Shown piece by piece: positions 12,889 to 32,865 of a stretch of DNA of 58,873 bases. The notes beneath the pieces are model-generated. The model did no database searches, had not been told where the DNA came from, and saw only the letters and a list, made by a program, of their open reading frames with translations. Position 1 is the first letter of the stretch. Every line of letters starts with the position of its first letter. The translations under genes were made by a program, and so were the position numbers. The DNA comes from a virus (taxonomy: Duplodnaviria > Caudoviricetes): positions 1 to 58,873 of the IMG/VR virus record IMGVR_UViG_3300047560_003072; one strand, written 5' to 3'.

Positions 12889-15723
12889 TTAATATGTGCC
12901 ACCGTCCAGCGTACTGTATGCTACAACACCACCAGAAATTTGCAGAACCGTACCTTCAGAACCCTTGCTCAGTTTTCTGAATCCGTTAGAGCTGTTAGCA
13001 ACAAGAATGTCTTCAGCAGTAAACGTATTCAGACCTGTACCACCAGAAGTACCTGGTAGTGGTGTAGATAGAGACAGAGAGTTTGCAACAATGTTAACGT
13101 TCATTGTGCTGTTTGCTGTCAACGTAACTGTCGTTGAATTAGCAATAAAGCCTGTCAGGCCAGTACCACCAGTCTTTATGTATGCCTGGAATGTAGCAAC
13201 GTTGTATGTGTTGTTTGCTGTATCGATTGTTGTTGTTGGAGCAGCCAACAAGTTATCGAACAGTTTCCATGTACCACTATCGCTAGCGTCACGGAACAAA
13301 CCAGCATGTCTGTGGTTGTTTGTGTTTGCATCGATACCGTAGTTGCCATACAAACCAATATCCAACAGATCAGAAACGTTGTTGTTTGTACCCAACTGAA
13401 TCAACGGATCGCTAACGGTAATATTATTAGCGTTAATTGTTGTCAGAGTACCTGTAACATCCAAGTTACCAGAAACAAACAAATCATTTACGTGGATTTG
13501 ATTAGCAGCAAGATTGTTTGTAACGCTAACGTTTGCACCGAATGATGCGTTTGCTGCAACCTGCAATGTGGTTGCTACGTTTGCAAAACCGTTAATAGTT
13601 GTGTTACCAAACGTTGCAACAGCGTTTGTTGTCGCTAGCGATGCAGACGAAATCTGAACGTTGATGGTGCTATTACCAATCGAAAGGACAGAAGTGTTGA
13701 CAACGACGTTTGCACCAACGGCAATGTTTGTTGTATTGACAATCGAGTTGCCTGTCGTCAAACCAGCGCTGGTTATAGTGGTGTTAACGGAACTATTACC
13801 AACAAACAATGCTGTCGTGTTTGCAATGACGTTAGCACCAACAGAAACAACAGAGTTGTTAACAACAACAGTGACAGCAGCGGTTTGATAGCTTGTGCCG
13901 ACCGATGTTGCAACGGAGTTGACTGTGCTGTTACCGATATACAATGCTGTTGTGTTTGCAATAACGTTTGCACCCGCAGCCAAAACGGTTGAGTTAGCAA
14001 CTGTCGTTCCAACCGTGAAAGCAATCGGAGTAACGTTTGCCGTACCGGTGCTGTTTGCAGCCTGAATCAGCGTTGAGGTTGAGGATGTATTAACTGTTGA
14101 GTTACCAACAGAAATTTTCGACGTAGTCGCAACAACGTTAGCACCAACAGAAACCTGTGTTGTGTTTACTGTTGAAGTAACGGTAGCTGAGGATACAACA
14201 AGACCTGTTTGAGTCGTTACAGCATTGACAGTTGAGTTGCCAACAAACATTGCTGTCGTGTTGGAAGCGACGTTTGCGCCAACATATACACCAAGTGTAT
14301 TTGCTACTGTTGTGACGGTGCCGTCTGTAATTGTAATATCGTTAAAATCAACAGTGGAAGATTGAGTTGTATTACCAATTCTCAGAGATGTTGCATTAGC
14401 AACGACGTTAGCACCAACAGCGACTGCTGTTGTATTAACAACGGAGATACCAACACTCAAAGCAAGAGGTGTAACGTTTGCCGTTGCTGTCGAGTTAGCA
14501 ATACTGAACAGCGCTGATGTCAACGAAGCATTGACCGTGCTGTTACCAATAAACAACGTTGTTGTATTTGCAATAACGTTTGCGCCCGCTGCCAATACGG
14601 TAGCGTTGACAGTAGACGTACCGATCACCAACGAAACAGGCGTCAAGTTTGCGGTACCGCTTGGACTCGCAATTTGAATTTGTGTAGCTGTAGATGTCGT
14701 ATTGACGGTGCTGTTACCGATCAGTGTTCCAGTTGCCGTTGCAATAACATTAGCACCAACAGCAACTGCTGTCGTATTAACAACAGAAATACCGGTCTTA
14801 AACTGCGTCGATGTAATGTTTGCAGAGCTTGATGCATCAATAACTTGCAACAACGAAGAGTTCGAATATACGTTGATTGTACTGTTACCAACAGACAAAT
14901 CAGAACCAGTGAATGTCAAGTTACCAACGGTAATCTGTGTACCACGCAAAGCAAGGTTACCAGCAGACAGCGTAGTGTTGACAGTGCTGTTACCAATAAA
15001 CAACGTGGTTGTATTGATTGTTAGGTTTGCACCAACGGAGATCTGACCTGTGTTTACAACTGTGCTTACTGTGGAGTTGGCAACCGTAATACCAGTCAGG
15101 GTAGCAACAGCGTTTACTGTGGAGTTACCAAGATACAGAGATGTGGTATTGATTACAGCGTTTGCACCAACCTGAATAACGGTTGTGTTAACTCTCGTGC
15201 TACCAACGTCGACGGTATTGGAAACAGCAAGCGTATTAGAACCAACAGTGAATGTAAGACCAGCAGTACCAGTAATACCTTGAGCGGAGTTACCGTAACC
15301 AACATATGTCGCTGCCAAACCACTAGATTTAGAATCAACATATGTCTTAACAGCATATGAAGTCAGCAATTCAGTGTTTGAATTACCGCCCGCTTGACCA
15401 GACACACCACCAAGCTGTGTACTGTTAGCGAATGTACTAATCGATGTGACGTTGATCGTTTCTGAGGTTGCGCCAATTGTCAACTTAGCGGTCTTAATAA
15501 CATCGACCCAGCTTGACGAGTTGGTAACGATTGCTTGGTTAGCTGTCAGAACACCAGGGTTACGTGCGCCACCAATTGCAACAACGTTAGCGGAGTTTGC
15601 TGTACCGTTAACGCTACCAATGAATAATACCTCACCATTACCAGAGTAAGCTAATTCGCCGACGGCAACGCTCGTTGGCACTGCCGTCCCGCTGCTTCTC
15701 TTAATTTGAATTTGGTTTGCCAT
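12889..15723 (-). CDS. long fibre protein with VGANV..NTT..(F/Y)IGNSTVN repeats
   Basis: IQIKR...GELAY N-terminus; imperfect internal repeats; DPLIQL and GLFRDASD motifs; ends LDGGTY. Confidence 0.75.
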   Translation of the reverse strand: MANQIQIKRSSGTAVPTSVAVGELAYSGNGEVLFIGSVNGTANSANVVAIGGARNPGVLTANQAIVTNSSSWVDVIKTAKLTIGATSETINVTSISTFANSTQLGGVSGQAGGNSNTELLTSYAVKTYVDSKSSGLAATYVGYGNSAQGITGTAGLTFTVGSNTLAVSNTVDVGSTRVNTTVIQVGANAVINTTSLYLGNSTVNAVATLTGITVANSTVSTVVNTGQISVGANLTINTTTLFIGNSTVNTTLSAGNLALRGTQITVGNLTFTGSDLSVGNSTINVYSNSSLLQVIDASSSANITSTQFKTGISVVNTTAVAVGANVIATATGTLIGNSTVNTTSTATQIQIASPSGTANLTPVSLVIGTSTVNATVLAAGANVIANTTTLFIGNSTVNASLTSALFSIANSTATANVTPLALSVGISVVNTTAVAVGANVVANATSLRIGNTTQSSTVDFNDITITDGTVTTVANTLGVYVGANVASNTTAMFVGNSTVNAVTTQTGLVVSSATVTSTVNTTQVSVGANVVATTSKISVGNSTVNTSSTSTLIQAANSTGTANVTPIAFTVGTTVANSTVLAAGANVIANTTALYIGNSTVNSVATSVGTSYQTAAVTVVVNNSVVSVGANVIANTTALFVGNSSVNTTITSAGLTTGNSIVNTTNIAVGANVVVNTSVLSIGNSTINVQISSASLATTNAVATFGNTTINGFANVATTLQVAANASFGANVSVTNNLAANQIHVNDLFVSGNLDVTGTLTTINANNITVSDPLIQLGTNNNVSDLLDIGLYGNYGIDANTNNHRHAGLFRDASDSGTWKLFDNLLAAPTTTIDTANNTYNVATFQAYIKTGGTGLTGFIANSTTVTLTANSTMNVNIVANSLSLSTPLPGTSGGTGLNTFTAEDILVANSSNGFRKLSKGSEGTVLQISGGVVAYSTLDGGTY

Positions 15724-15948
15724 TTAGAAAGTTCCCCCGTCTAGGTCTAGTAATTTTACTACATAAGTGTCTGTTGCCGGATCATAAACGAGGGTGCTAT
15801 TCTCCGGTGTCTCCGGAGTATCAGCTATCACATCCAACATCTGATCAATTCGTCTGTTGGCATCCGCTTGGATTGTGTTCTTTAGCGTAATTGGTGTCGT
15901 TGATTGAATCAGTCCATCCTGGACCTTAACAATAATTCCTTGGGTCAT
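15724..15948 (-). CDS. small fibre-associated adaptor protein
   Basis: 74 aa; LVYD..T..Y motif; ends LDGGTF like the neighbouring fibre. Confidence 0.55.
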   Translation of the reverse strand: MTQGIIVKVQDGLIQSTTPITLKNTIQADANRRIDQMLDVIADTPETPENSTLVYDPATDTYVVKLLDLDGGTF

Positions 15949-16271
15949 CTCGTAACTCCTGGGGTTACCGTTATAATGCCTTCAACAATTCGCGAGGTTA
16001 GCCCGCTTTTTGTCAGTAAAACATCATAAACATAACGACCGGGTGTTAAATTAGCTGTCTGCGTATCCGACAAAGCAAGTGTCACAACGCCCGTTCCAGG
16101 ACTCAGTGTTGTTGTGAAAGTTACTGCATTTGACGAAGTGTATGTCTTTCTCATCTGTGCGTTCGCACTATATCCGACCAGCGACACGACGTTTTCATCG
16201 TCATCGGTTAGTCTTATGGATGTTGAGTAGTCAGTACCCTGATCGATTACGAGATTTGCTTTAATAGCCAT
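15945..16271 (-). CDS. small virion structural protein (BppU-N-like adaptor)
   Basis: NLVIDQGTD, AQMRK, GRYVYDV, RIVEGIITVTPGVT pattern common in T4-like phages. Confidence 0.7.
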   Translation of the reverse strand: MAIKANLVIDQGTDYSTSIRLTDDDENVVSLVGYSANAQMRKTYTSSNAVTFTTTLSPGTGVVTLALSDTQTANLTPGRYVYDVLLTKSGLTSRIVEGIITVTPGVTR

Positions 16272-16320: not shown

Positions 16321-16929
16321 CTATTGTTTTACCCCGATCACCATGAACCGATTCTTGTGGCCAAGATTCAAACGTCCCCGCATCAACACTGTAGAAAATT
16401 GACATTGATCGACAAATTCATCAGTGGATCTAGCGATGTTGACATGACCGGGATCCGATTCTTCATCACAAGATTGAAAAGCATAAACCGCGCTTTGATT
16501 CTTTACGCGGATGTTTTCGATGTTTGTCATGTGTTCGCACGACGTGTTTATCACGATGTCTGCATCCACAAGACGGATTCGCGAAATATCATGCTCCACA
16601 TCAACAACACCCATCTTTATCTTTTCACTGCTGCTCTTTCCTACATCATGTAGAATCTGAGCAAACGAAAGCGTTTCACTGCTTTTATCCGTCAGTAATA
16701 TTTTCGATGGTTGAAACGCTTCTGTTAACATTGGGATCAAGTAGCTTCCAAACCATCCACCAAGAATAAGAATAGAAGGATTACTTGGGATCACTTGTTG
16801 CTTTAATGTATCAACAAGCCACTTCTTAGATCGATATTGTGTATTGCTTAAAGAGTTAGCGAGATCCTGAACTTGATCAGGTCTCGCTACTCGTAAGGCA
16901 TTTGAAACATTACAAAGGTAATCAAACAT
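16321..16929 (-). CDS. class I SAM-dependent methyltransferase-like protein
   Basis: ILILGGWFG (motif I), acidic residue after strand 2 (LLTD), IVINTSCEHM. Confidence 0.7.
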   Translation of the reverse strand: MFDYLCNVSNALRVARPDQVQDLANSLSNTQYRSKKWLVDTLKQQVIPSNPSILILGGWFGSYLIPMLTEAFQPSKILLTDKSSETLSFAQILHDVGKSSSEKIKMGVVDVEHDISRIRLVDADIVINTSCEHMTNIENIRVKNQSAVYAFQSCDEESDPGHVNIARSTDEFVDQCQFSTVLMRGRLNLGHKNRFMVIGVKQ

Positions 16930-17528
16930 TACACAACGATGTTCTGATTCAGAAGCTCAGGTCTCAGTTCTTGTATCAACCCCTCAATGTGGTTTTCAAG
17001 ATCGCTGTGTAGAGTGTATCCGTCGTAGAAAGTGTATTCTGTGTCGCGATCGAACACATCTTCATACCATGTAATTTCTTTTTGGTGATCGTTGCAGTAT
17101 TTCAGCAGCGTGCAAGTGCCGATTGCTGCAAACGTCATTTGCTGCTGAAGAAAGTGGCAATCACGTTCAGCACTGAAAGGATTGTTTTTAATCAGATAGT
17201 TAGCGCCAGACTTCAAAATGTTACGGAAGTTTTTGCGTGTGATGTATGCAATAGCGTCACCCCAATCTCTAGGCGTTGATGTAACGGAGTTGATCAAATA
17301 CAAGCTGGCTGGGGACAAAATGTTTTCCCAATGCATCATATACTCTGACAATGTATAGTCCGGCTGAACACCTGTTTCATGGAACATACGTTTGTAGTTG
17401 ATACGGTTTGTTGGGGGCTGGAGAACATAAATCTGAGTCAGCTCGCCTCTGAAGGGAACGTTTTGCTCGATCGACTTATGAATAGCGTACGCTGTTGATC
17501 CAGAACGTGGAGAACCTACAATATACAT
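16929..17528 (-). CDS. sulfotransferase-like P-loop protein
   Basis: N-terminal IVGSPRSGST resembles the 5'-PSB loop; later R..S (TRKNFRNILKS) and WYED motifs. Confidence 0.6.
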   Translation of the reverse strand: MYIVGSPRSGSTAYAIHKSIEQNVPFRGELTQIYVLQPPTNRINYKRMFHETGVQPDYTLSEYMMHWENILSPASLYLINSVTSTPRDWGDAIAYITRKNFRNILKSGANYLIKNNPFSAERDCHFLQQQMTFAAIGTCTLLKYCNDHQKEITWYEDVFDRDTEYTFYDGYTLHSDLENHIEGLIQELRPELLNQNIVV

Positions 17529-17554
17529 ATTACACCTCTGTTTTAAAAATTGTT

Positions 17555-18382
17555 ATGATAAACATCGTTTGCGTCAAAATTGGAACAAAATACAGCAGTA
17601 AATTTGCAAATCGTCTGTATAATATGTGTCAAACACATATAACACGTCCATTCAAGTTTTTTTGTTATACAGATGATCCCAATGGACTCGATGCTGGTAT
17701 AACGCCTGTTTCATTTGTCGACAACGATATCAAAATTATTGTGTTTAATAAGTTGTATTTATTAAGCAATGAGTTTGCATCTATGATCGGCAACAACGAT
17801 CCTTGTATGTTTTTTGATCTCGATATGGTAATCAAGGGGAACATAGACAGGCTCGTCGATTGTGCAACCGATTATGATGGAAAGCTAAGAGTGATCAACG
17901 CTGTATGGAAATACTCGTTTGACGAGGAAGAAGGAATGGAAGCCTTTAATCACCACATCAACTCGAGCTGTATGGTGTGGAAACCAACCGCCAGCAACTA
18001 TATTTGGGAACACTTTGCTAAACACAAACATCACTTCCAACAAAAGTTTCACACAGGTATGGATCCGTTTCTTTATTACGAAATGCAATGCAGAGGTGGA
18101 TTGCCTGAAGATATGTTCTATTCCTTTATTATGGGAATAGATCTAAAGATTAAAAGAATGATAACCGACCCTGCTGATTTTTACAATGTAAAAAATTCTA
18201 TTCCAATTGTGCTGTTTAATGGTCCGACAACAGATGAAGACATTGTTGAATTCATTGCTAGTGACTACAAAAAGGAATTCGACGACTTTAGTTTTGCCGA
18301 ATTCCTATATGGAAATCAAAAGAAGCGTGAACAGTTAAACCGGCAAAGGAAGGATAAGATGGACAGAAGGTTAGCCCTCTGA
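17555..18382 (+). CDS. glycosyltransferase (GT-A fold)
   Basis: Likely start ATG 17555 (MINIVCVKIGTKY); FFCYTDD, NKLYL, DxD motif FFDLDMVI, INSSCM. Confidence 0.8.
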   Translation: MINIVCVKIGTKYSSKFANRLYNMCQTHITRPFKFFCYTDDPNGLDAGITPVSFVDNDIKIIVFNKLYLLSNEFASMIGNNDPCMFFDLDMVIKGNIDRLVDCATDYDGKLRVINAVWKYSFDEEEGMEAFNHHINSSCMVWKPTASNYIWEHFAKHKHHFQQKFHTGMDPFLYYEMQCRGGLPEDMFYSFIMGIDLKIKRMITDPADFYNVKNSIPIVLFNGPTTDEDIVEFIASDYKKEFDDFSFAEFLYGNQKKREQLNRQRKDKMDRRLAL

Positions 18383-18985
18383 TTCAATATCCGCTACCAT
18401 ATCTTCCCACATACCTTCATGCGGAATGATGTAAGCAAGTGTTAGACGCTCTTCATGCTCAGCATTAGCACAATGCCAGTAGATTCTGTCTGTTTCTTTC
18501 CACGAGCCGTAGTAACCAACCTTACAAGTCCATCCTGGAGTATCGTTAATTGTAACAATCTCTTTCGTGATTGGATCTTGGTAACGGAAATATCCAGTAC
18601 CTTTTTCAGACCATGAGATAAGAATGTTATAACCTGGGGCGTTTGCGTTGTGGTGCCATCCCATGTAACCCGTTGCGGGATATAACATCTTAACAGCGTT
18701 GTTACGAGAACCGGACCACGCAAGCAGATCTTCATCTAACTTCTTCAGCGCGTCTTTCAATCCAGGCGGTGTCCATCGTGCAAGATCAACACCGTGTGTC
18801 TTTTCCGGAAATCCATCAACAGGTTTGTTTTGCATGAATTTCAAATACTCATCACCGCAAGCATATTCAGCCGTTATGTCTTTCTTCTGATACGGCCAGC
18901 CTGATCTATCTACAGCAAGCATGCTGCTCAGAAAGGTGTTGATAATTTTTAAAAGCTGTTTGTTTCTAATTTGGATGGTCTTCAT
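18371..18985 (-). CDS. DSBH/2OG-Fe(II) dioxygenase-like protein
   Basis: GYMGWHHN...YWHCA...RLTL metal/cosubstrate-like motif spacing. Confidence 0.6.
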   Translation of the reverse strand: MKTIQIRNKQLLKIINTFLSSMLAVDRSGWPYQKKDITAEYACGDEYLKFMQNKPVDGFPEKTHGVDLARWTPPGLKDALKKLDEDLLAWSGSRNNAVKMLYPATGYMGWHHNANAPGYNILISWSEKGTGYFRYQDPITKEIVTINDTPGWTCKVGYYGSWKETDRIYWHCANAEHEERLTLAYIIPHEGMWEDMVADIESEG

Positions 18986-19683
18986 TATTTGCCTACTCTA
19001 TGTGGAAGTGTGTGGTGATAAAAAACGATAGGATTCTTCGCTTCGTAAGAACGGTATCCGTTTACGAAATTCCAACGACCATCATCATCGAATACTTGTA
19101 CGTTAATTGGTAGCTTATCTTCATTCATAAGTTTCCACAACGTAAATTGGTCCCACTGAGCAAATGCTTCGGGAATAACGTTCTCTGGGTAGGGCCATGG
19201 ATCGATACGTTGTTTCCGGTAGTCTTGCCACCATCTTTCCATAAAATTCAACGTGCGCTCGTTGCTGCGATAGAGAAAGAAGCCTCCGTGATAGACCATC
19301 TCTCCTGTTGACCATTTATGCATTTTGCCATTGTATGGTCGTATTTTTGTGATTAGAATATCACATTCTTCGGGAATCTCGTCCCAAATATTTTGCACAT
19401 CCGTGTGCATACATTCCATGTCCGCATCAACATAACACGTCAATTCCGTATAAGGAGTACGTGAAAGAGCATACAGCTTTGCTCTTATATGATGTGGGAC
19501 ATCTTCACAAATCACTCGATTGAAGACATCATGATCGACATCGTCAATGAATTGTGGAGTTGTAAAAAGCGTGATGTCAGCATCCGGATAGAACTCCTTG
19601 ATGCTCGCCGCTGCAAAATTAGCTCCCTGTACATATCCTTGATGTACGGAAGCCACAATCAAAAAACCATTACGAACTGTCAT
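18985..19683 (-). CDS. glycosyltransferase (GT-A, GT8/nucleotide-diphospho-sugar transferase-like)
   Basis: AASIK, KLYAL, DxD motif YVDAD, GGFFLY, DQFTL, WNF, FYHH. Confidence 0.8.
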   Translation of the reverse strand: MTVRNGFLIVASVHQGYVQGANFAAASIKEFYPDADITLFTTPQFIDDVDHDVFNRVICEDVPHHIRAKLYALSRTPYTELTCYVDADMECMHTDVQNIWDEIPEECDILITKIRPYNGKMHKWSTGEMVYHGGFFLYRSNERTLNFMERWWQDYRKQRIDPWPYPENVIPEAFAQWDQFTLWKLMNEDKLPINVQVFDDDGRWNFVNGYRSYEAKNPIVFYHHTLPHRVGK

Positions 19684-19686
19684 ATT

Positions 19687-20154
19687 TTACTCTGCGGGGG
19701 TGTCCTGTGTTTCTTCTTGAGACGGGTTTTGAATTGAATCGAGAATGATTGCTGCTGCATATGCATAAACTTCGAAGTCGGTCTTTGCACGGCGCAGAGA
19801 AGATTTCAATGATTTATTTGCAGTATTCTTAATAACATCGACTTCAAACGCTTGCAACTTAACAGCAAACAGACGCTCTTGACGCTCTTTGTCAATCTTA
19901 GCTTCTTCAGCAGCTTTCTTTGCTTCGAGTTCCTGAGCCTGCTTTTTGATCATTTTCTGCGTGTTCTGCTCAAGCTCATCAGCAGAAAACTTTGCTCTGA
20001 CCTCTTGATAGTCAGCGTTGTTAGACTCATTAGAGTTAATAACCGCTGTCGAAACGCGACCATCATCATAATGAAATTCCACCGATAGCACTGTACGTGC
20101 ATTGTTTGTCCAATGAGGATTCTTAATAGTTCTCTTCATGCTGTTCTTACCCAA
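19687..20154 (-). CDS. putative fibre assembly chaperone
   Basis: IKNPHWTNNARTVLSVEF resembles tail-fibre-assembly protein N-termini; overlaps the 3' end of the giant repeat gene. Confidence 0.45.
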   Translation of the reverse strand: MGKNSMKRTIKNPHWTNNARTVLSVEFHYDDGRVSTAVINSNESNNADYQEVRAKFSADELEQNTQKMIKKQAQELEAKKAAEEAKIDKERQERLFAVKLQAFEVDVIKNTANKSLKSSLRRAKTDFEVYAYAAAIILDSIQNPSQEETQDTPAE

Positions 20155-23100
20155 AGTTTAATTGTTGAAACTGTTTCTGGTGTTGACACAATTGTTAGAC
20201 CACTGAAAGCACCTGTGAAAGCTCCGGAGTAAACACCAGTAAACACGTTACCATAACCGCCCGTAAAATAACCAATATACCCTTGACCGTAGATGCCAGT
20301 ATAGGTTGTATTGTAATCACCAGTATATAGGCCTGAATAAATTCCTGTAAACGCTCCAGTGTATATCCCGCTGAACGCACCAGTAAATCCTTGGTTGTAA
20401 CTACCAGAATAGATACCGGTGTATGTTGTATTATACACTCCTGTAAATGCTCCAGTAAACGCTTGGTTATACGCACCAGTGAAAACCTGCGAGTAGTTTC
20501 CTGTGAACGCTCCAGTGAACGTTTGATTGTAGGTGCCAGTAAACGTTTGCTGGTAGTTACCTGTATAGTTACCGGTAAATACCTGTGAGTAGTTTCCTGT
20601 GAACGCTCCGGTGAATGTCTGGTTGTAGATACCAGTAAACGTCTGTCCGTAACTGCCTGAATATGCGCCAGTGAATGTCTGGTTGTAAACGCCTGTAAAT
20701 GTACCTGTAAACGTTTGGTTGTAAGCACCAGTAAACGTTTGGTTATAGGCACCGGTAAATGCTCCAGTGAAAACTTGGTTATATGCACCAGTAAAGGATT
20801 GTGCATATGAACCACTATACGTTGCCGTAAACGATCCTACATATCCACCCGAATACAAACCTGAGAACGTACCAACATAACCACCAGAATAGAAACCAGT
20901 AAAGTAGCCCGTATAGCCACCTGAGTACAAACCTGAGAACGTACCTACATATCCACCCGAATAAATGCCGGTAAACGATCCAGTGTAGTTGCCTGTGTAG
21001 ATACCAGTAAAGTAGCCCGTATAGCCACCTGAGTACAAACCTGAGAACGTACCAACATAACCACCCGAATAAATACCGGTAAACGATCCAGTGTAGTTGC
21101 CTGTGTAGATACCAGTAAAGTTTTGAGCATATGTGCCCGAGTATATACCGGTAAAGTTTTGTGCGTACGCACCGGAATATGCACCAGTAAAGTAACCAGT
21201 ATATCCACCCGCGTAATTACCTGCATAGTATCCAGTATAGTAGCCAGTGTATCCACCAGAATATGTACCAGTAAAATTCCACGCGTACGCACCAGCGTAT
21301 GCGCCGGTGAAGTAGCCAGTGTAAACACCCGAGTATGAACCAGTGTAGTAGCCAGTGTAGTAGCCAGTATAACCACCAGCATACACGCCTGAGAATGCTC
21401 GCGAATAGGATCCTGAATACGCCCCTGTAAAGTATCCAGTGTATCCGCCGGAATACAAACCAGTGTAGTAACCTGTATAGTAGCCAGTGTAGTAGCCAGT
21501 GTACACACCAGTAAAATATCCTACATATCCACCCGAATATTGACCTGTGAATGCTCTTGCATATGCACCCGAATAGAGGCCAGTGTAATAACTAGTGTAG
21601 TAACCTCCAAATGCACCTGTGAACGATCCGGTATAGTTACCGGTGTACAGGCCAGTGTAGTAACCGGTGTAGTAACCAGCATACGCGCCTGCATACGCAC
21701 CAGCAAAAGCTTTTGCAACCGTAGCATATCCACCAACATATGTTGCATACTCATAGGCAGGGCTACCTGCATAATATGCAAGCAAGCGATTACCAGCATA
21801 GTTACCGGTATAGATTGTTATACCAGCTGCATAGCTGCCTTGATAATATCCAACGTAATATTGAGGGTATCCAGCGTAGTAGGCCCAAAGACGGTTGTTG
21901 ACGTATGTACCGAGATAAGAAGCTCCGTTGACGTTATAACCAACACCGCCGCCAGGATTTGAATTACCAAACTTTTTCAAGTTTGTAAAGAACGTACGAG
22001 CATATAAACCGGTATAGTAACCAGTGTAGTAACCAGTGTAGTAACCAAGGTATGCGCCGGCATATGTGCCTGAATACACACCCGTAAACACTCTACTGTA
22101 GGCGCCAGCATAATACCCTAGGTATGATGTTGCATATGAGCCAGCATAAGCACCCGTAAAATATCCCGTGTAGTTACCCGTGTAAAGACCAGTAAACGTC
22201 TGTGCATAAGCGCCAGAATAATAACCTGTATAGTAGCCGGTATAGTAACCAGTGTACGTACCAGAATAGATGCCGGTAAACGTCTGTGCGTATGCACCAG
22301 AATAAATGCCAGTGAAATATCCTGTATAGAATCCTGTATAAAGACCCGTGTAGTAGCCAGTATAGTAGCCAGTGTAGTAGCCAGTGTAGATACCGGTGAA
22401 ACCTTGAGCATAAGCACCAGAATAGATGCCGGTAAAGTAACCAGTGTACGTACCAGCGTATATACCGGTATATACACCGGTGTAGTATCCTGTGTAGTAT
22501 CCCGTATAAACACCGGTAAACGTTTGTGCATATGCACCGGAATAGATGCCGGTAAAGTATCCCGTATAAACACCAGAATACAAGCCAGTAAAGTAACCAG
22601 TGTATGTGCCTGAATATGTACCAGTAAACACACGGCTATATGTTCCTGAATACGCACCAGTAAACGTTTGTTGATATGCTCCAGAGTATGTGCCAGTGAA
22701 TACTTGCTGATATGTGCCTGAATATGTACCAGTAAACACACGGCTATATGTTCCTGAATACGCACCAGTAAACGTTTGTTGATATGCTCCAGAGTATGTG
22801 CCAGTAAATACTTGCTGATATGTACCAGCATAGGCACCCGTGAAGGTCTGCTGATATGCACCAGCATATGTGCCTGTAAACGTCTGGTTATAAATGCCAG
22901 TGTATGCGCCAGTGAAGTAACCAGTGTACAAACCAGAGAACGTGCCAGTAAATCCTTGACTGTAAATGCCGCTGAACGTTCCTACATAGCCACCAGAGAA
23001 TGCTCCTGTGAATCCCTGATTAAATGCACCGGTGAACGCACCAACATATCCACCTGAGTAAATACCAGTGAAGACGTTACCATAACCACCTGTAAAGGCG

Positions 23101-24266
23101 CCAGTAAATCCTTGACTGTAAATGCCAGTGAAAGTTCCTACATAACCACCAGAATAGACACCCGTAAACACATTGGTGTATCCACCAGAGAATGCACCGG
23201 TAAATCCTTGGTTGTAAATGCCAGTAAAGGTACCAGTGTATCCACCAGAAAAAGCTCCCGTAAATGCTTGAGAGTACACACCCGTATAAGCAGCAGTGTA
23301 TGCTCCTGTGTAAGCACCAGTAAACGTTCCGGTAAATGTTTGGTTGAATACGCCAGTGAATCCCTGATTAAAGACTCCTGTATACGCACCCGAGTAAGCA
23401 CCTGTGTATGCTTTTGTATACGCACCTGTGTAACTACCGGTAAATGTCTGCGCATAGGCACCGGAGAATACTTGACCATACGTGCCAGTAAACGCACTTG
23501 TAAACGAACCAGAATAACTCTGTGTTGCTGTTGAATATTCTGTATCGTCAAAACCACTACCAGCCATTGTCCATGTTCCTGGAGCTGTTGGAGCGGTTGA
23601 GCTTAGTTGGTATTTTCCAATACCATTATTGACAATGTAGTTACGAAGCTTGAATGTCAGCAGCTTGATTTCAGCATCTGACATTTCACGGAAGCCGCCA
23701 TAGAACTTGATTGGACGTCTAACGTTTGTAATTGTTTCAGCAGTCTTCTGCCACAGTGTGGTTGTATTTGTCGTACCACTTGTCAGAGTGTTGGTGAGTG
23801 TTCCACGTGAAACCCATGTACCTGAAGCTGGTGCTGTTGGTTGCAAAACATAGCTACCAACACCACCGTTGACCAATGCAGACGCTGCTCGTGAAATGAT
23901 TGACGTGTCAATATCACTGTCTGGCATTTCCTGCCATCCGTTGAGTACTGTATTCCAGGCCAAAGGACGGTTAAATGTTTCTGATATTGAGCCGTTTGAA
24001 AGATCTTGATAAACGGTCGTCGAAGTACTTGTTGTTGCAGTTGGACTTACAGGATGTGTACCGAGAGGATCCGTACGGTAAGTATCAACCCATGTACCAA
24101 TTGAAGTTCCGTTGGCCATTGAACCAATAGCAAGCGAGCCAACGCTTGTATTAGCAGCGAATCCTTCATTAATTTTTTTCACAAGGTAGTCATCTATGTC
24201 CGTCGTGGACATAGTCTGAAGACCGTTAAGTGAAGTGTTGTATTTTACGGGAGATAGAATGGCCAT
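20136..24266 (-). CDS. 1376-aa (Y/F)xGx tetrapeptide-repeat virion fibre protein
   Basis: About 250-aa N-domain with three (Q/R)-(E/T)-M-S/P..D/E repeats; about 1100 aa of tetrapeptide repeats with a central unique segment; C-terminal strand TIKLWVRTA. Confidence 0.8.
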   Translation of the reverse strand: MAILSPVKYNTSLNGLQTMSTTDIDDYLVKKINEGFAANTSVGSLAIGSMANGTSIGTWVDTYRTDPLGTHPVSPTATTSTSTTVYQDLSNGSISETFNRPLAWNTVLNGWQEMPDSDIDTSIISRAASALVNGGVGSYVLQPTAPASGTWVSRGTLTNTLTSGTTNTTTLWQKTAETITNVRRPIKFYGGFREMSDAEIKLLTFKLRNYIVNNGIGKYQLSSTAPTAPGTWTMAGSGFDDTEYSTATQSYSGSFTSAFTGTYGQVFSGAYAQTFTGSYTGAYTKAYTGAYSGAYTGVFNQGFTGVFNQTFTGTFTGAYTGAYTAAYTGVYSQAFTGAFSGGYTGTFTGIYNQGFTGAFSGGYTNVFTGVYSGGYVGTFTGIYSQGFTGAFTGGYGNVFTGIYSGGYVGAFTGAFNQGFTGAFSGGYVGTFSGIYSQGFTGTFSGLYTGYFTGAYTGIYNQTFTGTYAGAYQQTFTGAYAGTYQQVFTGTYSGAYQQTFTGAYSGTYSRVFTGTYSGTYQQVFTGTYSGAYQQTFTGAYSGTYSRVFTGTYSGTYTGYFTGLYSGVYTGYFTGIYSGAYAQTFTGVYTGYYTGYYTGVYTGIYAGTYTGYFTGIYSGAYAQGFTGIYTGYYTGYYTGYYTGLYTGFYTGYFTGIYSGAYAQTFTGIYSGTYTGYYTGYYTGYYSGAYAQTFTGLYTGNYTGYFTGAYAGSYATSYLGYYAGAYSRVFTGVYSGTYAGAYLGYYTGYYTGYYTGLYARTFFTNLKKFGNSNPGGGVGYNVNGASYLGTYVNNRLWAYYAGYPQYYVGYYQGSYAAGITIYTGNYAGNRLLAYYAGSPAYEYATYVGGYATVAKAFAGAYAGAYAGYYTGYYTGLYTGNYTGSFTGAFGGYYTSYYTGLYSGAYARAFTGQYSGGYVGYFTGVYTGYYTGYYTGYYTGLYSGGYTGYFTGAYSGSYSRAFSGVYAGGYTGYYTGYYTGSYSGVYTGYFTGAYAGAYAWNFTGTYSGGYTGYYTGYYAGNYAGGYTGYFTGAYSGAYAQNFTGIYSGTYAQNFTGIYTGNYTGSFTGIYSGGYVGTFSGLYSGGYTGYFTGIYTGNYTGSFTGIYSGGYVGTFSGLYSGGYTGYFTGFYSGGYVGTFSGLYSGGYVGSFTATYSGSYAQSFTGAYNQVFTGAFTGAYNQTFTGAYNQTFTGTFTGVYNQTFTGAYSGSYGQTFTGIYNQTFTGAFTGNYSQVFTGNYTGNYQQTFTGTYNQTFTGAFTGNYSQVFTGAYNQAFTGAFTGVYNTTYTGIYSGSYNQGFTGAFSGIYTGAFTGIYSGLYTGDYNTTYTGIYGQGYIGYFTGGYGNVFTGVYSGAFTGAFSGLTIVSTPETVSTIKLWVRTA
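20895..21110. repeat. 108-bp tandem duplication (C-terminal arm)
   Basis: accagtaaag recurs at 20895, 21003 and 21111; encodes FTGIYTGNYTGSFTGIYSGGYVGTFSGLYSGGYTGY x2; few synonymous mismatches. Confidence 0.85.
22603..22818. repeat. 108-bp tandem duplication (N-terminal arm)
   Basis: tatgtgcctgaatatg at 22603 and 22711; encodes YQQVFTGTYSGAYQQTFTGAYSGTYSRVFTGTYSGT x2; nearly identical. Confidence 0.85.
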
Positions 24267-24284: not shown

Positions 24285-26327
24285 TTACGCCGTTCTTACA
24301 TACAGCGTATACGTGGTTGGTGTTGTAGTATTTAGGACAGTCAAACCAGTGTATGCTCCTGTAAATGCTCCCGTGAACACTTTTGAGAATGCGCCTGTGT
24401 AAGCGCCAGTGTAGAAAGAAATATACGATCCAGTGAATGCACCAGTAAATACACGACTGTATGTACCAGAGAAGTATCCAATTGTTGAGTATACTCCCGT
24501 GTACGCGCCGGAATAAAATCCCGAATATGCGCCAGTGTACAAGCCGGTAAACGCACCCGTGTATATGCCAGTGTATGTTGTGTTGTATATACCCGAAAAT
24601 ACTCGCGAATACACACCTGTGAAGCCGCCTGAATATTGACCTGTGAATGCTCGAGAGTATGCACCCGTATATGCAGCAGTGTATGCACCTGTAAAGTTTA
24701 CGCTGCGTAAAGTCACATTAATATGCGTAAAAGTTTGTGCGTATGATCCGGAATACAAACCGGTGTAGTTACCGACATATGTTGTTGTAAATGCACCAAC
24801 GAAGCTAGCAAAACCGCTGACGTATGCTCCCGAAAAATATCCTATACCGGTTCCACCACCACCGACGTAGTAGTGAGCATACCCTCCAACAAACACGCCT
24901 GCATAAATGTTTGGTGTTGAAGCGGAATAATTACCAACATATACACCCGTAAAGTAATGTGGGTGACCGTTGTAATAACCATTCAGGTAGTTATCAGTAT
25001 AATAACCAACATATGAGTTATCATACCACGACCAACCTATGTTTAGGTAATCTGTATAATACTGACGAGAGAATGCTTGTATTCGTGTTGGACCTTGTGA
25101 TATACGTGTGTATACACCCGAGTACTGGCCAGTGAATGCTCCCGTATAGTTACCAATATATGTACCAGAGAATGCACCGGTGTACGTACCGGCATAAGTT
25201 GTATTGTATGCTCCAGTAAATGCACCCGTATAAACGCCAGTAAAAATGTTACCATATGCACCGGTAAATGCACCCGTATAATTTCCTGCGTATCCCGTTA
25301 CATAACCACCAGTGAATGACTGGCCATACGTTCCGGAATATGAGCCTGCATAATATCCTATGTACGCACCAACGTAGTTACCTGAATAGTTTAAAATCGA
25401 TTGGTAGATACCTGAGAACGCGCCCGTAAATCCACCTGAATATTGACCAGTATAAGCCGTTGCATAGTTACCAATATAGGTACCAGAGAATGCACCTGTG
25501 AATGATTGTTGATATGTGCCCGAATACGAAATACCAGACAAATCATTAATTTTGTCAATGTAAGCACCACGACCGACCCATGTTCCTGTTCCTGGAGCAG
25601 CCGTACCAACATTATATGTACCTACACCTGTGGTACGATAATATTCACCAAGGAATGGAGCAAGAGCGGTGATATCCGCCTGCGTCATTTCAGTCAACTG
25701 ATTGTTGACGAGCTTTAATGGTAGGTTTGTACTTGCGTTGTTAGCTGTCCATGCATCTGTACGTTGATACAGTCTATACACTTCAAGAATATTAGTGCCT
25801 GCTGAATCATAGTGCTGCTGGAAAAAATAGTTGTTTCTGTCTGTCCATGTTCCTGCCGGTAACGAATCACTCGGTGCAAGTAGGTAGTATGATCCACGAC
25901 CACCTGTAAGCATCGAAGAAGCAGAAACAATGTATGGCCAGAAGAAGCTGTTCATGTCATCATTTGACATTTCACGAACTTGATATTCACCACCAGAGAG
26001 AACGTAATGCACAGGGCGCGCCTGTGTGGTCATTGTTTGTGTACTATACGTTTGATACAGTGTATGTGTGTCGTATGATACAGATGCTGGGTGAACACCT
26101 ACTCCAGCCGTATAACCATCAAGAGCAGCTCCACGAGAAACGTAATTTGCAACCGAAGGATATTGGTCAAAACGAATCCAGTTACCCGTATTTTCAATAA
26201 GGGTATTGTTAGCAAGTACTGTGTTAATTATAAGAGGAATGACGAGATCTTGGAGCTCCGCATCAGACATCTCCTGCAAACCAACCGCTACTGCTCCACT
26301 ATATTTTGCTCGGAGTGGTCTTCCCAT
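24285..26327 (-). CDS. 680-aa paralogous (Y/F)xGx tetrapeptide-repeat fibre protein
   Basis: Same N-domain motifs (GLQEMSDAE, REMSNDD, TEMTQAD, GTW..RG); about 390 aa of repeats; ends TYTLYVRTA. Confidence 0.8.
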   Translation of the reverse strand: MGRPLRAKYSGAVAVGLQEMSDAELQDLVIPLIINTVLANNTLIENTGNWIRFDQYPSVANYVSRGAALDGYTAGVGVHPASVSYDTHTLYQTYSTQTMTTQARPVHYVLSGGEYQVREMSNDDMNSFFWPYIVSASSMLTGGRGSYYLLAPSDSLPAGTWTDRNNYFFQQHYDSAGTNILEVYRLYQRTDAWTANNASTNLPLKLVNNQLTEMTQADITALAPFLGEYYRTTGVGTYNVGTAAPGTGTWVGRGAYIDKINDLSGISYSGTYQQSFTGAFSGTYIGNYATAYTGQYSGGFTGAFSGIYQSILNYSGNYVGAYIGYYAGSYSGTYGQSFTGGYVTGYAGNYTGAFTGAYGNIFTGVYTGAFTGAYNTTYAGTYTGAFSGTYIGNYTGAFTGQYSGVYTRISQGPTRIQAFSRQYYTDYLNIGWSWYDNSYVGYYTDNYLNGYYNGHPHYFTGVYVGNYSASTPNIYAGVFVGGYAHYYVGGGGTGIGYFSGAYVSGFASFVGAFTTTYVGNYTGLYSGSYAQTFTHINVTLRSVNFTGAYTAAYTGAYSRAFTGQYSGGFTGVYSRVFSGIYNTTYTGIYTGAFTGLYTGAYSGFYSGAYTGVYSTIGYFSGTYSRVFTGAFTGSYISFYTGAYTGAFSKVFTGAFTGAYTGLTVLNTTTPTTYTLYVRTA

Positions 26328-32442: not shown

Positions 32443-32865
32443 TTATTGCTTGACTTCTACGTATTCGCTTTCAGGCGGATACAGAACTTGTATACGAATG
32501 TGACTACGGAAGCAAGAAAGACTCGTCGTCATAAAATCATCCGAAAGTGTTTGTGAATTTGTGGTTGTAAGAGCAACTTCCTTATTACCTGCAATAAGGT
32601 TTGAAGCAGCTTGCGATTGCTCAAGAGTTGTCTTATCTCCGCTTAAACCAGAATCATACAGATAGTCAAACGTCATTTTTCCATTGCTATCTGTTCTAAG
32701 AGGTTCACCCGCTTTGCCGCCAAGAGGCTTTAGCTTCGATGCTGGAACAAGCTGTCTTTCAAAATAAAAATAGTGTGTTGTAAGTGGCAGCAAACCTGAA
32801 ACGTTAAACGTGAACGTTTGCTCTCTTGCTACAAAATATACACGAGGATTAGTCTTCGTTGGCAT
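32443..32865 (-). CDS. virion structural protein (middle part of DUF4815/VrlC-like family)
   Basis: R.QTFTFNVSGLLP.T.HYFYF and LRTDSNG motifs. Confidence 0.6.
   Translation of the reverse strand: MPTKTNPRVYFVAREQTFTFNVSGLLPLTTHYFYFERQLVPASKLKPLGGKAGEPLRTDSNGKMTFDYLYDSGLSGDKTTLEQSQAASNLIAGNKEVALTTTNSQTLSDDFMTTSLSCFRSHIRIQVLYPPESEYVEVKQ

What the first reader, a model, noticed from the sequence alone, without database searches (positions are those of the whole stretch)
20136..24266. Mirror-symmetric tetrapeptide protein: probable giant single-chain beta-hairpin fibre
Seen: strict (Y/F)-x-G-x tetrapeptides run from about aa 250 to about aa 1356. A non-repetitive segment at about aa 760-850 sits at their midpoint (about aa 803). 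Composition is mirrored around it: F/N/Q-rich tetrads (YNQG, YNQT, FTGA) at both outer ends, and YTGY/YAGY-rich tetrads on both sides of the centre. The short C-terminal strand TIKLWVRTA resembles strands in the N-domain (TTLWQKTA). Inference: the chain runs out about 500 residues and returns antiparallel to finish in the N-domain. If fully extended at about 3.3 A per residue this would be a thin fibre on the order of 150-180 nm. I do not recognise this as a described phage fibre fold.
Basis: partly seen in the sequence, partly recalled or inferred. Interest (0 to 1): 0.9.

Follow-up and report, generated by a model that had tools for sequence, protein, structure and literature searches.

The report
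Out-and-back hairpin phage fibre protein
A phage structural gene encodes a protein whose chain runs out for 504 residues, makes a small tip domain and runs back for exactly 504 residues, with every phenylalanine or tyrosine matched by the same residue on the return arm, a fibre design that matched no curated family or solved structure.

Summary
ORF 20136-24266 (-), 1376 aa, has two arms of exactly 126 tetrads each (aa 251-754 and 854-1357). All 252 tetrads start with Y or F, and 200 have G at position 3. The arms flank a 99-aa unique segment.

The key new result is a residue-level mirror. The F-versus-Y identity of residue i in arm 1 equals that of residue 1609-i in arm 2 in 121 of 125 pairs (phi 0.93; next-best shift 0.45; 0 of 2000 permutations reach it).

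Two recent 108-bp tandem duplications sit at mirror positions in the two arms. The N-domain is three tandem modules, and the extreme C-terminal strand aligns on the missing last strand of module 3. AlphaFold2 of the adjacent 680-aa paralogue places that strand at pLDDT 96-97.

The family has 368 representative clusters. It matched no Pfam or PHROG family, and sequence and fold searches found no convincing solved relative. The same mirror rule holds at the anchor-predicted register across it.

The out-and-back topology is therefore strongly supported. The arm geometry is not settled. A two-stranded ribbon of about 170 nm fits best, but AlphaFold2 drew parts of the paralogue's arms as separate 16-residue solenoids. 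Oligomeric state and function (a baseplate fibre with a distal binding tip) are inferred. Earlier notes of this scan on the same window had flagged the duplications and the paralogue.

The parts
20136..24266 (-). Whole gene A, 1376 aa plus stop: hairpin-fibre protein
   Evidence: ORF listing. N-domain profile finds 368 representative clusters at E<=1e-3.
23979..24242 (-). N-domain module 1 (aa 9-96)
   Evidence: Repeated motifs xEMSDxxI and GTW. Module alignment A5.
23727..23957 (-). N-domain module 2 (aa 104-180), complete, with a short hairpin ending in TTLWQKTA
   Evidence: The equivalent hairpin in paralogue B is modelled as E161-173/E179-189 at pLDDT >90.
23517..23714 (-). N-domain module 3, N-terminal part (aa 185-250). 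It lacks its last strand.
22005..23516 (-). Arm 1 (outgoing), aa 251-754, 126 tetrads in one register
21708..22004 (-). Unique tip segment, aa 755-853 (99 aa), Tyr-rich, with an internal direct repeat (NRLxAYYAG.P)
   Evidence: sequence print. No phmmer hit among the family proteins at E<=0.01.
20196..21707 (-). Arm 2 (returning), aa 854-1357, 126 tetrads in one register
   Evidence: Mirror match to arm 1 at i+j=1609.
20139..20195 (-). C-terminal closing strand, aa 1358-1376, ending TIKLWVRTA. It is the last strand of module 3.
   Evidence: It aligns on the last strand of modules 1 and 2. The same terminus ends 120 of 152 family proteins examined. In B it is modelled at pLDDT 96-97.
22603..22823 (-). 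Tandem 108-bp duplication in arm 1 (2.0 copies, 99% alike), aa 482-555
   Evidence: Tandem Repeats Finder.
20890..21121 (-). Tandem 108-bp duplication in arm 2 (2.1 copies, 96% alike), aa 1049-1126. The mirror partner of aa 482-555 under i+j=1609 is aa 1054-1127.
   Evidence: Tandem Repeats Finder. Arithmetic.
24285..26327 (-). Paralogue B, 680 aa, same design with shorter arms
   Evidence: F/Y mirror at i+j=931: 32 pairs, 10 F-F, 2 mismatches. AlphaFold2.
18371..20154 (-). Conserved downstream cassette: orf155 (19687-20154), GT-A-like transferase (18985-19683), orf204 (18371-18985)
   Evidence: All three follow the fibre gene in 20 of 20 related loci. The transferase matches Pfam Nucleotid_trans at 22.6 bits against a cut-off of 22.

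Best explanation
Gene A encodes a virion fibre built as one giant hairpin.

Base. The N-domain consists of three tandem modules. Each ends in a beta-hairpin whose last strand reads (T)-L-(W/Y)-x-(K/R)-T-A. In module 3 that hairpin has been stretched enormously.

Out and back. The chain leaves the domain and runs out for 126 (Y/F)-x-G-x tetrads. It then forms a 99-aa tip domain and runs back for exactly 126 tetrads. Its last 19 residues supply the missing strand of module 3. Both chain ends therefore sit at the conserved base, and the variable middle of the sequence is the distal tip.

Arm pairing. The two arms lie side by side and antiparallel over their whole length, so that the aromatic residue i is next to aromatic residue 1609-i. 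Each such rung is Y-Y or F-F, almost never mixed. A non-glycine at position 3 faces a glycine.

Inferred geometry. The most likely form is a two-stranded beta-ribbon with an aromatic rung every fourth residue. This is inferred, not shown. If extended it would be about 170 nm for A and about 50 nm for paralogue B.

Inferred role of the F/Y pattern. The pattern is aperiodic and fits only one register. It would therefore set the register of two otherwise degenerate repeat arms.

Inferred function. The conserved base docks on the baseplate and the variable tip binds the host. The conserved downstream transferase genes may modify the fibre.

Shown: the equal arms, the residue-level mirror, the matched duplications, the module homology of the C-terminal strand, and the rule across the family. 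Inferred: the ribbon geometry, the length, the oligomeric state, the place in the virion and receptor binding.
For: 1. Arms of 504 and 504 aa, each in one register.

2. At i+j=1609 there are 79 Y-Y, 42 F-F and 4 mixed pairs. Mutual information is 0.739 bit against at most 0.147 at the 20 other in-phase shifts. Phi is 0.93 against 0.45 for the next-best mirror shift and 0.565 for the best parallel alignment. 0 of 2000 permutations reach it.

3. Position 3 pairs are 75 G-G, 50 G with non-G and 1 non-G with non-G (Fisher p 0.015).

4. Two independent 108-bp tandem duplications (99% and 96% alike) lie at aa 482-555 and 1049-1126. The mirror partner of the first is aa 1054-1127.

5. 1609 equals W232 of the module-3 GTW motif plus the last residue 1376 plus 1. 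I took this anchor rule from A and tested it on the family. A free scan of all registers put the best F/Y concordance exactly at the anchor value in 19 of 51 complete members with enough pairs (window A, from which the rule came, and B among the 19), and within 1 in 3 more.

6. I pooled 116 family proteins at the anchor register, with A left out and no scanning. This gave F-F 212, Y-Y 634 and mixed 258, where 471 mixed are expected. Twelve control shifts gave F-F 93-130 and mixed 320-499.

7. The first and last arm are exactly equal in 10 of 48 homologues and within 4 aa in 18 of 48. The permutation mean is 4.1 and the maximum 13 of 2000. Examples are 92/92, 128/128, 166/166, 210/211 and 28/28, with cores of 13 to 634 aa.

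8. Short members are plain hairpins with a conserved turn and equal arms: 3+3, 5+5 and 9+9 tetrads. Six-residue units occur at mirrored distances from the base, for example P0085 with 6,5,5,4 against 6,5,5,4.

9. The C-terminal strand aligns on the last strand of modules 1 and 2.

10. AlphaFold2 of B gives pLDDT >90 for residues 1-270 and 96-97 for the last 30. It draws long strands 250-273 and 654-678.

11. AlphaFold2 of homologue P0159 has mean pLDDT 87.6. It draws base strands 237-257 and 317-346 plus a tip hairpin 273-285 and 288-301, with no solenoid pattern.

12. Context is a T4-like baseplate operon with gp6, gp7 and gp8 homologues. The fibre gene keeps the same neighbours in 20 of 20 loci, which hold 15 distinct fibre proteins.
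Against: AlphaFold2 of B models aa 344-404 of arm 1 alone as a square solenoid with 16 residues per coil. It aligns to pentapeptide-repeat proteins (2bm4_A Z 6.8, rmsd 1.5 A over 61 residues). pLDDT there is 60-80. The rest of the arms is below 50.

In P0159 the middle of the hairpin is of low confidence (pLDDT 46-62). The drawn tip register differs by about 4-5 residues from the F/Y register.

I could not read model coordinates. Contacts are therefore inferred from strand ranges only, and the hydrogen-bond register is not determined.

A lone two-stranded ribbon 170 nm long with one aromatic face is physically unusual and has no precedent that I know of.

By the crude arm measure, 26 of 48 homologues differ by more than 8 aa. 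Some of these are segmentation artefacts. P0012 measured 170/136, yet its F/Y optimum is at the anchor. Others have domains inserted in the arms (P0010, P0017, C48C1) and do not fit a single register.

No positions other than 1 and 3 show coupling.

The copy number of the two 108-bp repeats cannot be confirmed from the public contigs, which break there.

Nothing here shows that the protein is in the virion, and no binding function is shown.
Confidence: 0.7

Rival explanations
1. Out-and-back topology, but each arm is its own tetrapeptide-repeat beta-solenoid with four tetrads (16 residues) per coil and the aromatic residues in the core. The two rods lie side by side. The fibre would then be a short thick rod, about 15 nm for A.
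For: AlphaFold2 of B shows bridges every 4 residues with a 16-residue super-period at 345-400 and 545-590, at pLDDT 60-80. Residues 344-404 alone superpose on pentapeptide-repeat helices (Z 6.8, 6.7, 6.6). An invariant aromatic plus a frequent glycine is a typical solenoid signature (my knowledge). Equal arms would also be needed here.
Against: Aromatic residues buried in two separate cores have no reason to match at every one of 125 rungs. Members with 3-9 tetrads per arm are too short for a coil each, yet have the same repeat and the same rule. P0159 is drawn as a hairpin. Sequence super-repeats are 3, 5, 8, 9 and 10 tetrads (periods 36, 60, 96, 108 and 120 nt), not multiples of 4. Two-residue insertions are matched on the opposite arm.
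Confidence: 0.15
2. The hairpins do not stand alone. Two or three chains pack their aromatic faces together into a multi-stranded rod, and Y-Y or F-F rungs form uniform buried layers. This is a refinement of the best explanation, not exclusive of it.
For: The near-absence of mixed Y-F rungs (4 of 125) is easiest to understand if the hydroxyl groups are buried and must be paired. That is inference. Known phage fibres are mostly trimers (my knowledge).
Against: The N-domain is itself three tandem modules. Its model resembles pseudo-threefold beta-prism domains only weakly (Z 7.1, 6.8, 6.0). One chain may therefore already fill a threefold site. Nothing here shows an oligomer.
Confidence: 0.3
3. 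A conventional parallel fibre: chains run N-proximal to C-distal, the middle segment is a nodule, and the two repeat blocks are colinear.
For: This is the usual design of phage fibres (my knowledge). Homologue C48C1 has several globular domains strung along the repeats.
Against: It gives no reason for equal arms, mirror F/Y identity, mirrored duplications or a C-terminal strand homologous to a strand of the N-domain. The best parallel alignment of the arms reaches only phi 0.565 over 69 tetrads.
Confidence: 0.03
4. Assembly artefact or non-functional low-complexity ORF.
For: Short-read contigs of the holding runs break at the repeats. The gene is highly repetitive.
Against: An assembly error would break the 126/126 symmetry and the constant register on both sides of the duplications, not create them. 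Three runs hold half or more of the sampled words, with pieces at 99% or more identity. 368 related clusters exist. Synteny is conserved.
Confidence: 0.02

Closest known systems
Phage C48C1 (OQ984149.1) CDS0201, 3347 aa, 'hypothetical protein'
   Same: It is the only relative in the phage record collection. It has the same N-domain (31% identity over 93% of the N-domain query), the same extreme C-terminal strand, aromatic tetrad repeats and the same downstream cassette.
   Different: It is far longer. Many tetrads carry R instead of G, or R at the aromatic position. Several globular domains are inserted in the repeats, so no single register fits. It is not characterised.
Stalk-and-knob of bovine ultralong CDR-H3 antibodies (recalled; PMC11008599 seen only in a search listing)
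   Same: A hairpin loop of a folded domain is extended into a two-stranded antiparallel beta-ribbon stalk, rich in alternating aromatic residues. The stalk presents a small binding domain at its tip.
   Different: That stalk has about a dozen residues per strand. Here there are up to 504. There is no sequence relation, and the knob there is disulfide-rich.
Antiparallel coiled-coil arms of SMC/Rad50 and the dynein stalk (recalled)
   Same: The topology is out and back. Both chain ends form the base domain, a functional domain sits at the tip, arm lengths are matched, and irregularities are mirrored on the two strands.
   Different: Those arms are alpha-helical coiled coils with heptad logic. 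Here the repeat is a four-residue aromatic/glycine unit, predicted beta.
Tryptophan-zipper hairpins and aromatic-glycine cross-strand pairing (recalled)
   Same: Cross-strand aromatic pairs on one face stabilise a two-stranded hairpin. Glycine next to aromatic rings is tolerated in beta-strands.
   Different: Those are designed peptides of 12-16 residues. No like-with-like Y/F rule is known to me there.
Trimeric phage and adenovirus fibres (T4 gp12 and gp34-37, triple beta-helix, triple beta-spiral) (recalled)
   Same: Genome position beside baseplate genes. A conserved attachment part and a variable distal part. Lengths of tens to more than 100 nm.
   Different: Those are parallel homotrimers with a distal C-terminus. 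No PHROG or Pfam fibre family matches here.
Pentapeptide-repeat quadrilateral beta-helix (MfpA 2bm4, Np275 and others)
   Same: A short-period repeat with one invariant hydrophobic position. Part of the AlphaFold2 model of B superposes at Z 5.6-6.8.
   Different: The period is 4, not 5. There is no Pfam match. The mirror coupling between arms is not a solenoid property.

Membership tests
Unnamed hairpin-fibre family defined here (profile of alignment A1) | N-domain of three tandem modules (helix start xEM(S/T)Dxx(I/L), then GxGxY, then G(T/S)W) | tested here: met
   The motifs occur three times in A and in B. Module alignment. Profile search: 368 clusters at E<=1e-3 and 276 at E<=1e-10.
Unnamed hairpin-fibre family defined here (profile of alignment A1) | Extreme C-terminus is the strand (T)x(L)(W/Y)x(R/K)(T/V)(A) | tested here: met
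   A ends TIKLWVRTA and B ends TYTLYVRTA. 120 of 152 proteins examined end this way and start with M or V. The remaining 32 lacked a start, the C-terminal strand or both.
Unnamed hairpin-fibre family defined here (profile of alignment A1) | F/Y identity mirrored at register = W of third GTW + last residue + 1 | tested here: met
   A: 121 of 125. B: 30 of 32. Exactly at the anchor in 19 of 51 members. Pooled result.
Unnamed hairpin-fibre family defined here (profile of alignment A1) | Followed by orf155, a GT-A-like transferase and orf204 | tested here: met
   20 of 20 loci and the window.
Pentapeptide repeat proteins (right-handed quadrilateral beta-helix) | Five-residue repeat A(D/N)LXX, 20 residues per coil | tested here: not met
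   The period is 4 throughout 1008 residues. No Pentapeptide Pfam family at E<=1.
Pentapeptide repeat proteins (right-handed quadrilateral beta-helix) | Fold similarity | tested here: inconclusive
   Z 6.8, rmsd 1.5 A over 61 residues, for a stretch of the B model at pLDDT 60-80. Z under 8 is common noise by the tool's own note.
Collagen-like triple helix fibres | Glycine at every third residue | tested here: not met
   Glycine recurs every fourth residue.
Described phage tail-fibre families (PHROGs, Pfam) | Profile match | tested here: inconclusive
   0 PHROG families at E<=0.01 for A and B. Pfam gives only sub-threshold hits. A library holds only what was described.
Pfam Gly-zipper_YMGG (PF13441) | Score at or above the gathering cut-off of 28.9 bits | tested here: not met
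   22.3 bits for A and 14.5 for B.
Beta-prism domains (MABP, C-terminal domain of MACPF proteins) | Pseudo-threefold beta-prism fold of the base domain | tested here: inconclusive
   P0159 model: 8b6v_A Z 7.1 (119 aa, 3.7 A), 2qp2_A Z 6.8, 3tow_A Z 6.0, 6sb1_A Z 5.5. B model: the same four entries at Z 5.0-6.3. Foldseek found nothing at E<=1e-3.

The most novel reading that the evidence does not exclude
This is a new class of fibrous protein: a single chain folded into a two-stranded beta-ribbon of up to 125 aromatic rungs, about 170 nm long. Its register is written into the sequence as an aperiodic F/Y barcode, like with like, so that two otherwise degenerate 500-residue repeat arms can zip in only one way. 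Length evolves by paired duplications at mirror positions. The fibre is a stretched hairpin loop of a pseudo-threefold base domain, so one chain may replace the usual trimer.

A bolder side reading is that Y-Y rungs are chemically modified or cross-linked by neighbouring enzymes. It is weakened because the cytochrome P450 of this operon is absent from all 20 related loci.
Probability: 0.35. Interest if true: 0.92.

Novelty: categorically new. Interest (0 to 1): 0.88.

Why it matters
The known ways to build a long thin protein are few: coiled coils, collagen, triple beta-helices and spirals, and cross-beta stacks. Tail fibres whose structures I recall are parallel oligomers with a distal C-terminus.

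This family has at least 368 sequence clusters in public metagenomes, and all named members are hypothetical. It appears to use a different principle: a single chain that goes out and comes back, with the receptor-facing domain in the middle of the sequence.

The like-with-like F/Y rule at every rung is an unusually clean natural covariation signal. It gives a directly testable pairing map (i+j=1609).

If the ribbon geometry holds, it offers a genetically tunable molecular ruler from 4 to 170 nm and a register-coding idea useful for protein design. For annotation, it says where the host-range determinant lies: in the central segment, not the C-terminus.

Tried and rejected
Searches that found nothing useful.

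- Megablast of the baseplate genes against phage records: no match.
- The search for homologous proteins with residues 1-260 of A: no hit in the 756-2408 aa length band. I did not try other length bands.
- Foldseek against PDB for both models: nothing at E<=1e-3. BFVD gave one unnamed row at E 3.9e-4 with TM 0.06.
- PDB sequence searches with A, A1, A2 and A3: only low-complexity Y/G tails of an exoribonuclease. Two 'virion structural protein' rows at E 0.23-0.35 did not recur with the larger profiles.
- The ESM Atlas returned only unnamed viral clusters at 0.87-0.88.
- phmmer of the tip segment against the family set: no hit.
- PDB and PHROG searches for orf204 and the transferase: nothing.

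Complex prediction. Three copies of the short homologue P0011 gave no answer (score 0.00, mark 0.42). This is no evidence either way.

P450 idea. I asked whether the operon's cytochrome P450 cross-links Y-Y rungs as a family feature. The P450 is real (Pfam E 2.5e-21). It is absent from all 20 related loci and from C48C1, so it cannot explain the family-wide rule.

A register scan that counted only aromatic-aromatic pairs could not pick a register, because every in-phase shift scores alike. My first anchor regex also picked GTF/GSF inside the arms. I replaced it with the F/Y scan.

Public runs. The Logan contigs break at both 108-bp repeats, so copy number could not be checked. No insertions or deletions were listed. 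The many 'joints' in run X1 have short sides and unknown inserts, and I read them as repeat cross-matches. Run labels (freshwater, freshwater sediment, aquatic, marine metagenomes) are given only as labels.

Literature. Six searches found no description of this family. I saw only search listings and abstract starts and read no paper. Supplements were not consulted.


Full report
**The gene and its setting**

The ORF at 20136-24266 (-) is real and 1376 aa long. It lies in a tightly packed minus-strand run of structural genes. Upstream are homologues of T4 baseplate wedge proteins: gp6 at 43265-45052, gp7 at 40347-43268 and gp8 at 38583-40340, each with a strong PHROG match. The best gp6 relatives in the phage records are the Sinorhizobium phiM12 group and Caulobacter Cr30, at about 41% identity.

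Directly upstream is a 680-aa paralogue, B (24285-26327), with the same design. The contig is all that is held of this genome. Public runs labelled freshwater and sediment metagenomes hold near-identical DNA.

**Repeat anatomy**

Matches to [YF]xGx fall into two unbroken registers, aa 251-754 and aa 854-1357. Each is exactly 504 residues, or 126 tetrads.
- Position 1 is Y or F in all 252 tetrads.
- Position 3 is G in 200 of them.
- Position 2 is mostly T, S or A, and position 4 varies.

Between the arms lie 99 non-periodic, Tyr-rich residues (755-853).

Their smoothed mirror correlations are 0.81 and 0.79, against -0.62 and -0.69 for the parallel alignment. It does not hold for several other features.

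**The N-domain and the C-terminal strand**

The first 250 residues contain three copies of one module. Each has a helix start xEM(S/T)Dxx(I/L), a GxGxY strand, then G(T/S)W, a hairpin, and a last strand ending L-(W/Y)-Q-(K/R)-T-A.

Module 2 is complete: its GTW is followed 20 residues later by TTLWQKTA. Module 3 has the GTW but no last strand. In a multiple alignment, the last 13 residues of A and of B fall on the last strand of modules 1 and 2.

AlphaFold2 of B, with a 104-sequence alignment, gives pLDDT above 90 for residues 1-270 and 96-97 for the last 30. It draws long strands 250-273 and 654-678. These begin at the module-3 tryptophan and end at the C-terminus. Their end points sum to 927-928 and lie close to the F/Y register of 931. 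That fits their pairing, but I could not read contacts.

The fibre is therefore an insertion in the last hairpin of module 3.

The confident part of both models resembles pseudo-threefold beta-prism domains only weakly. The matches are the MACPF C-terminal domains 8b6v_A and 2qp2_A, MABP 3tow_A and perforin-2 P2. Z is 5.5-7.1 for the P0159 model and 5.0-6.3 for the B model. I treat that as a hint that the three modules form a threefold-like base.

**The mirror rule**

I aligned arm 1 against arm 2 in reverse order and compared only whether the aromatic residue is F or Y.
- At one shift, i+j = 1609, 121 of 125 pairs agree: 79 Y-Y, 42 F-F and 4 mixed. Phi is 0.93.
- The next-best mirror shift gives 0.45. 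The best parallel alignment gives 0.565 over 69 tetrads.
- No permutation out of 2000 reaches the observed value.
- Mutual information is 0.739 bit at this shift and at most 0.147 at the 20 other in-phase shifts.
- At position 3, a non-glycine (mostly Q) faces a glycine in 50 pairs and another non-glycine in only 1.
- Positions 2 and 4 show no coupling.

The DNA has no inverted repeat that could produce this. An inversion would not give a mirrored protein in any case. The pattern must therefore be selected. The simplest reason is that residues i and 1609-i are neighbours.

**Paired duplications**

Tandem Repeats Finder reports two near-perfect 108-bp tandem duplications.
- One is at 22603-22823 (99% alike, aa 482-555, arm 1).
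- The other is at 20890-21121 (96% alike, aa 1049-1126, arm 2).

The units are unrelated in sequence. Under i+j = 1609, the partner of aa 482-555 is aa 1054-1127. Two recent, independent, equal-length insertions thus lie opposite each other.

I confirmed them and tied them to the register.

In B, two six-residue units (308-313 and 613-618) lie 10 and 11 tetrads from the base, as note e1-6296868 said (and my count). They are offset by one rung, and the register is restored after both.

**The family**

A profile of the two N-domains finds 368 representative clusters at E<=1e-3 among 1.84 billion proteins. Of 152 proteins examined, 120 start with M or V and end with the L-W-x-R-T-A type strand. 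Lengths run from under 300 to 1490 aa. GenBank phage C48C1 has a 3347-aa member.

By a crude run-finding measure, the first and last arms are identical in length in 10 of 48 proteins and within 4 aa in 18 of 48. The permutation mean is 4.1. Equal pairs span 28/28 to 210/211 residues, around cores of 13 to 634 residues. In 26 of 48 the arms differ by more than 8 aa.

Inspection shows two causes. One is segmentation error: P0012 measured 170/136, yet its F/Y optimum is at the anchor. The other is a set of proteins with domains inserted along the arms.

The sharper test uses the anchor rule read from A: register = W of the third GTW + last residue + 1. A free scan over all registers puts the best F/Y concordance exactly there in 19 of 51 members that have enough pairs, with A itself and B among the 19. 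It is within one residue in 3 more. The remaining 29 have few F residues, weak scores or interrupted arms.

I also pooled 116 proteins at the anchor register without scanning, leaving A out. Mixed pairs number 258 against 471 expected, and F-F pairs 212. Twelve control shifts give F-F 93-130.

Short members show a conserved turn and 3+3, 5+5 or 9+9 tetrads. Six-residue units sit at mirrored distances from the base, as in P0085 with 6,5,5,4 against 6,5,5,4.

**Geometry: what is and is not settled**

The out-and-back topology with the arms juxtaposed is well supported. How the arms fold is not.

AlphaFold2 of B leaves most of the arms below pLDDT 50. It draws 345-400 and 545-590 (pLDDT 60-80) with a bridge every fourth residue and a 16-residue super-period.

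I weigh it lower for five reasons.
- Two separate cores cannot explain a like-with-like match at every rung.
- Arms of 12-36 residues in short members cannot each form a coil.
- AlphaFold2 of the 348-aa member P0159 (mean pLDDT 87.6) draws a hairpin from base to turn, though its middle is of low confidence.
- Sequence super-repeats are 3, 5, 8, 9 and 10 tetrads rather than multiples of four.
- Two-residue insertions are compensated on the other arm.

A two-stranded ribbon with aromatic rungs is the best fit. At about 3.3 A per residue (my figure) it would measure about 170 nm for A and about 50 nm for B.

The near-ban on mixed Y-F rungs suggests one of two things. Either the hydroxyl groups are buried, which hints at packing of several hairpins. 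Or the F/Y pattern serves to fix the register of degenerate repeats.

**Context and function**

In 20 of 20 related loci (19 IMG/VR contigs plus C48C1, holding 15 distinct fibre proteins) the fibre gene is followed by three homologues of window genes.
- orf155.
- The GT-A-like transferase at 18985-19683. Its Pfam Nucleotid_trans score is just above the cut-off.
- orf204.

A second transferase-like gene (17495-18382, phrog_1962) is present in 15 of 20 loci. The cytochrome P450 at 32849-34117 is genuine but is found in none of the 20 loci.

A conserved base, a hypervariable middle and a position beside the baseplate genes fit a baseplate-attached fibre whose tip binds the host. That is inference. 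No tool here shows virion location or binding.

**Comparison with what is known**

No Pfam, PHROG, PDB or BFVD entry describes this protein. Six literature searches found nothing on it; I saw listings only.

The closest working analogies, all recalled rather than tested, are these.
- The stalk-and-knob of bovine ultralong CDR-H3 loops.
- The out-and-back coiled-coil arms of SMC proteins and dynein.
- Tryptophan-zipper hairpins.

The protein fails the defining features of pentapeptide-repeat and collagen-like proteins.

**Verdict**

The extended-ribbon geometry and the function are probable but untested. I rate it a new architecture of high interest.

Noticed in passing
window 24285-26327 (-): There is a 680-aa paralogue directly upstream with the same base, arms, tip and closing strand. 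One phage would thus carry a long and a short fibre of this kind (about 170 and about 50 nm if ribbons).
   Followed up: yes
window 32849-34117 (-): A cytochrome P450 gene (Pfam PF00067, E 2.5e-21) sits inside the baseplate operon. None of the 20 related loci has it. The phage record collection gives only one weak partial match.
   Followed up: partly
window 16321-20154: A cassette of small genes lies after the fibre. orf155, the GT-A-like transferase and orf204 are conserved in 20 of 20 loci. A second transferase-like gene on the plus strand (17495-18382, phrog_1962, E 4e-6) is in 15 of 20. orf202 (16321-16929) is in most. A role in modifying the fibre is only a guess.
   Followed up: partly
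L001:9012-19055 (OQ984149.1, CDS0201): The 3347-aa homologue has several globular domains inserted along the repeats. It has many tetrads with Arg in place of Gly or of the aromatic residue. It also has an exact tandem duplication of about 80 aa near aa 2008-2170.
   Followed up: partly
window 20195-23557, other frames and strand: Several ORFs of 90-250 aa lie in other frames of the fibre gene (for example 22118-22867 and 21540-21962). They are by-products of the repeat and unlikely to be genes.
   Followed up: no
window 15945-16271 (-): A 108-aa ORF has a sub-threshold match to the Pfam LtfC-like beta-sandwich domain (24.2 bits, cut-off 27). It lies next to the 944-aa fibre-like gene at 12889-15723.
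   Followed up: no
window 20854-21013 and 22603-22715: In the best holding run, the public contigs stop at both 108-bp duplications. The short pieces there have depths of 42-64, against 19-39 for the flanking pieces. That fits collapsed two-copy repeats but does not prove it.
   Followed up: partly
L003:12046-13844: In one related contig, about 1.8 kb lies between the 680-aa fibre gene and orf155. There is room for a second paralogue, but I did not examine it.
   Followed up: no
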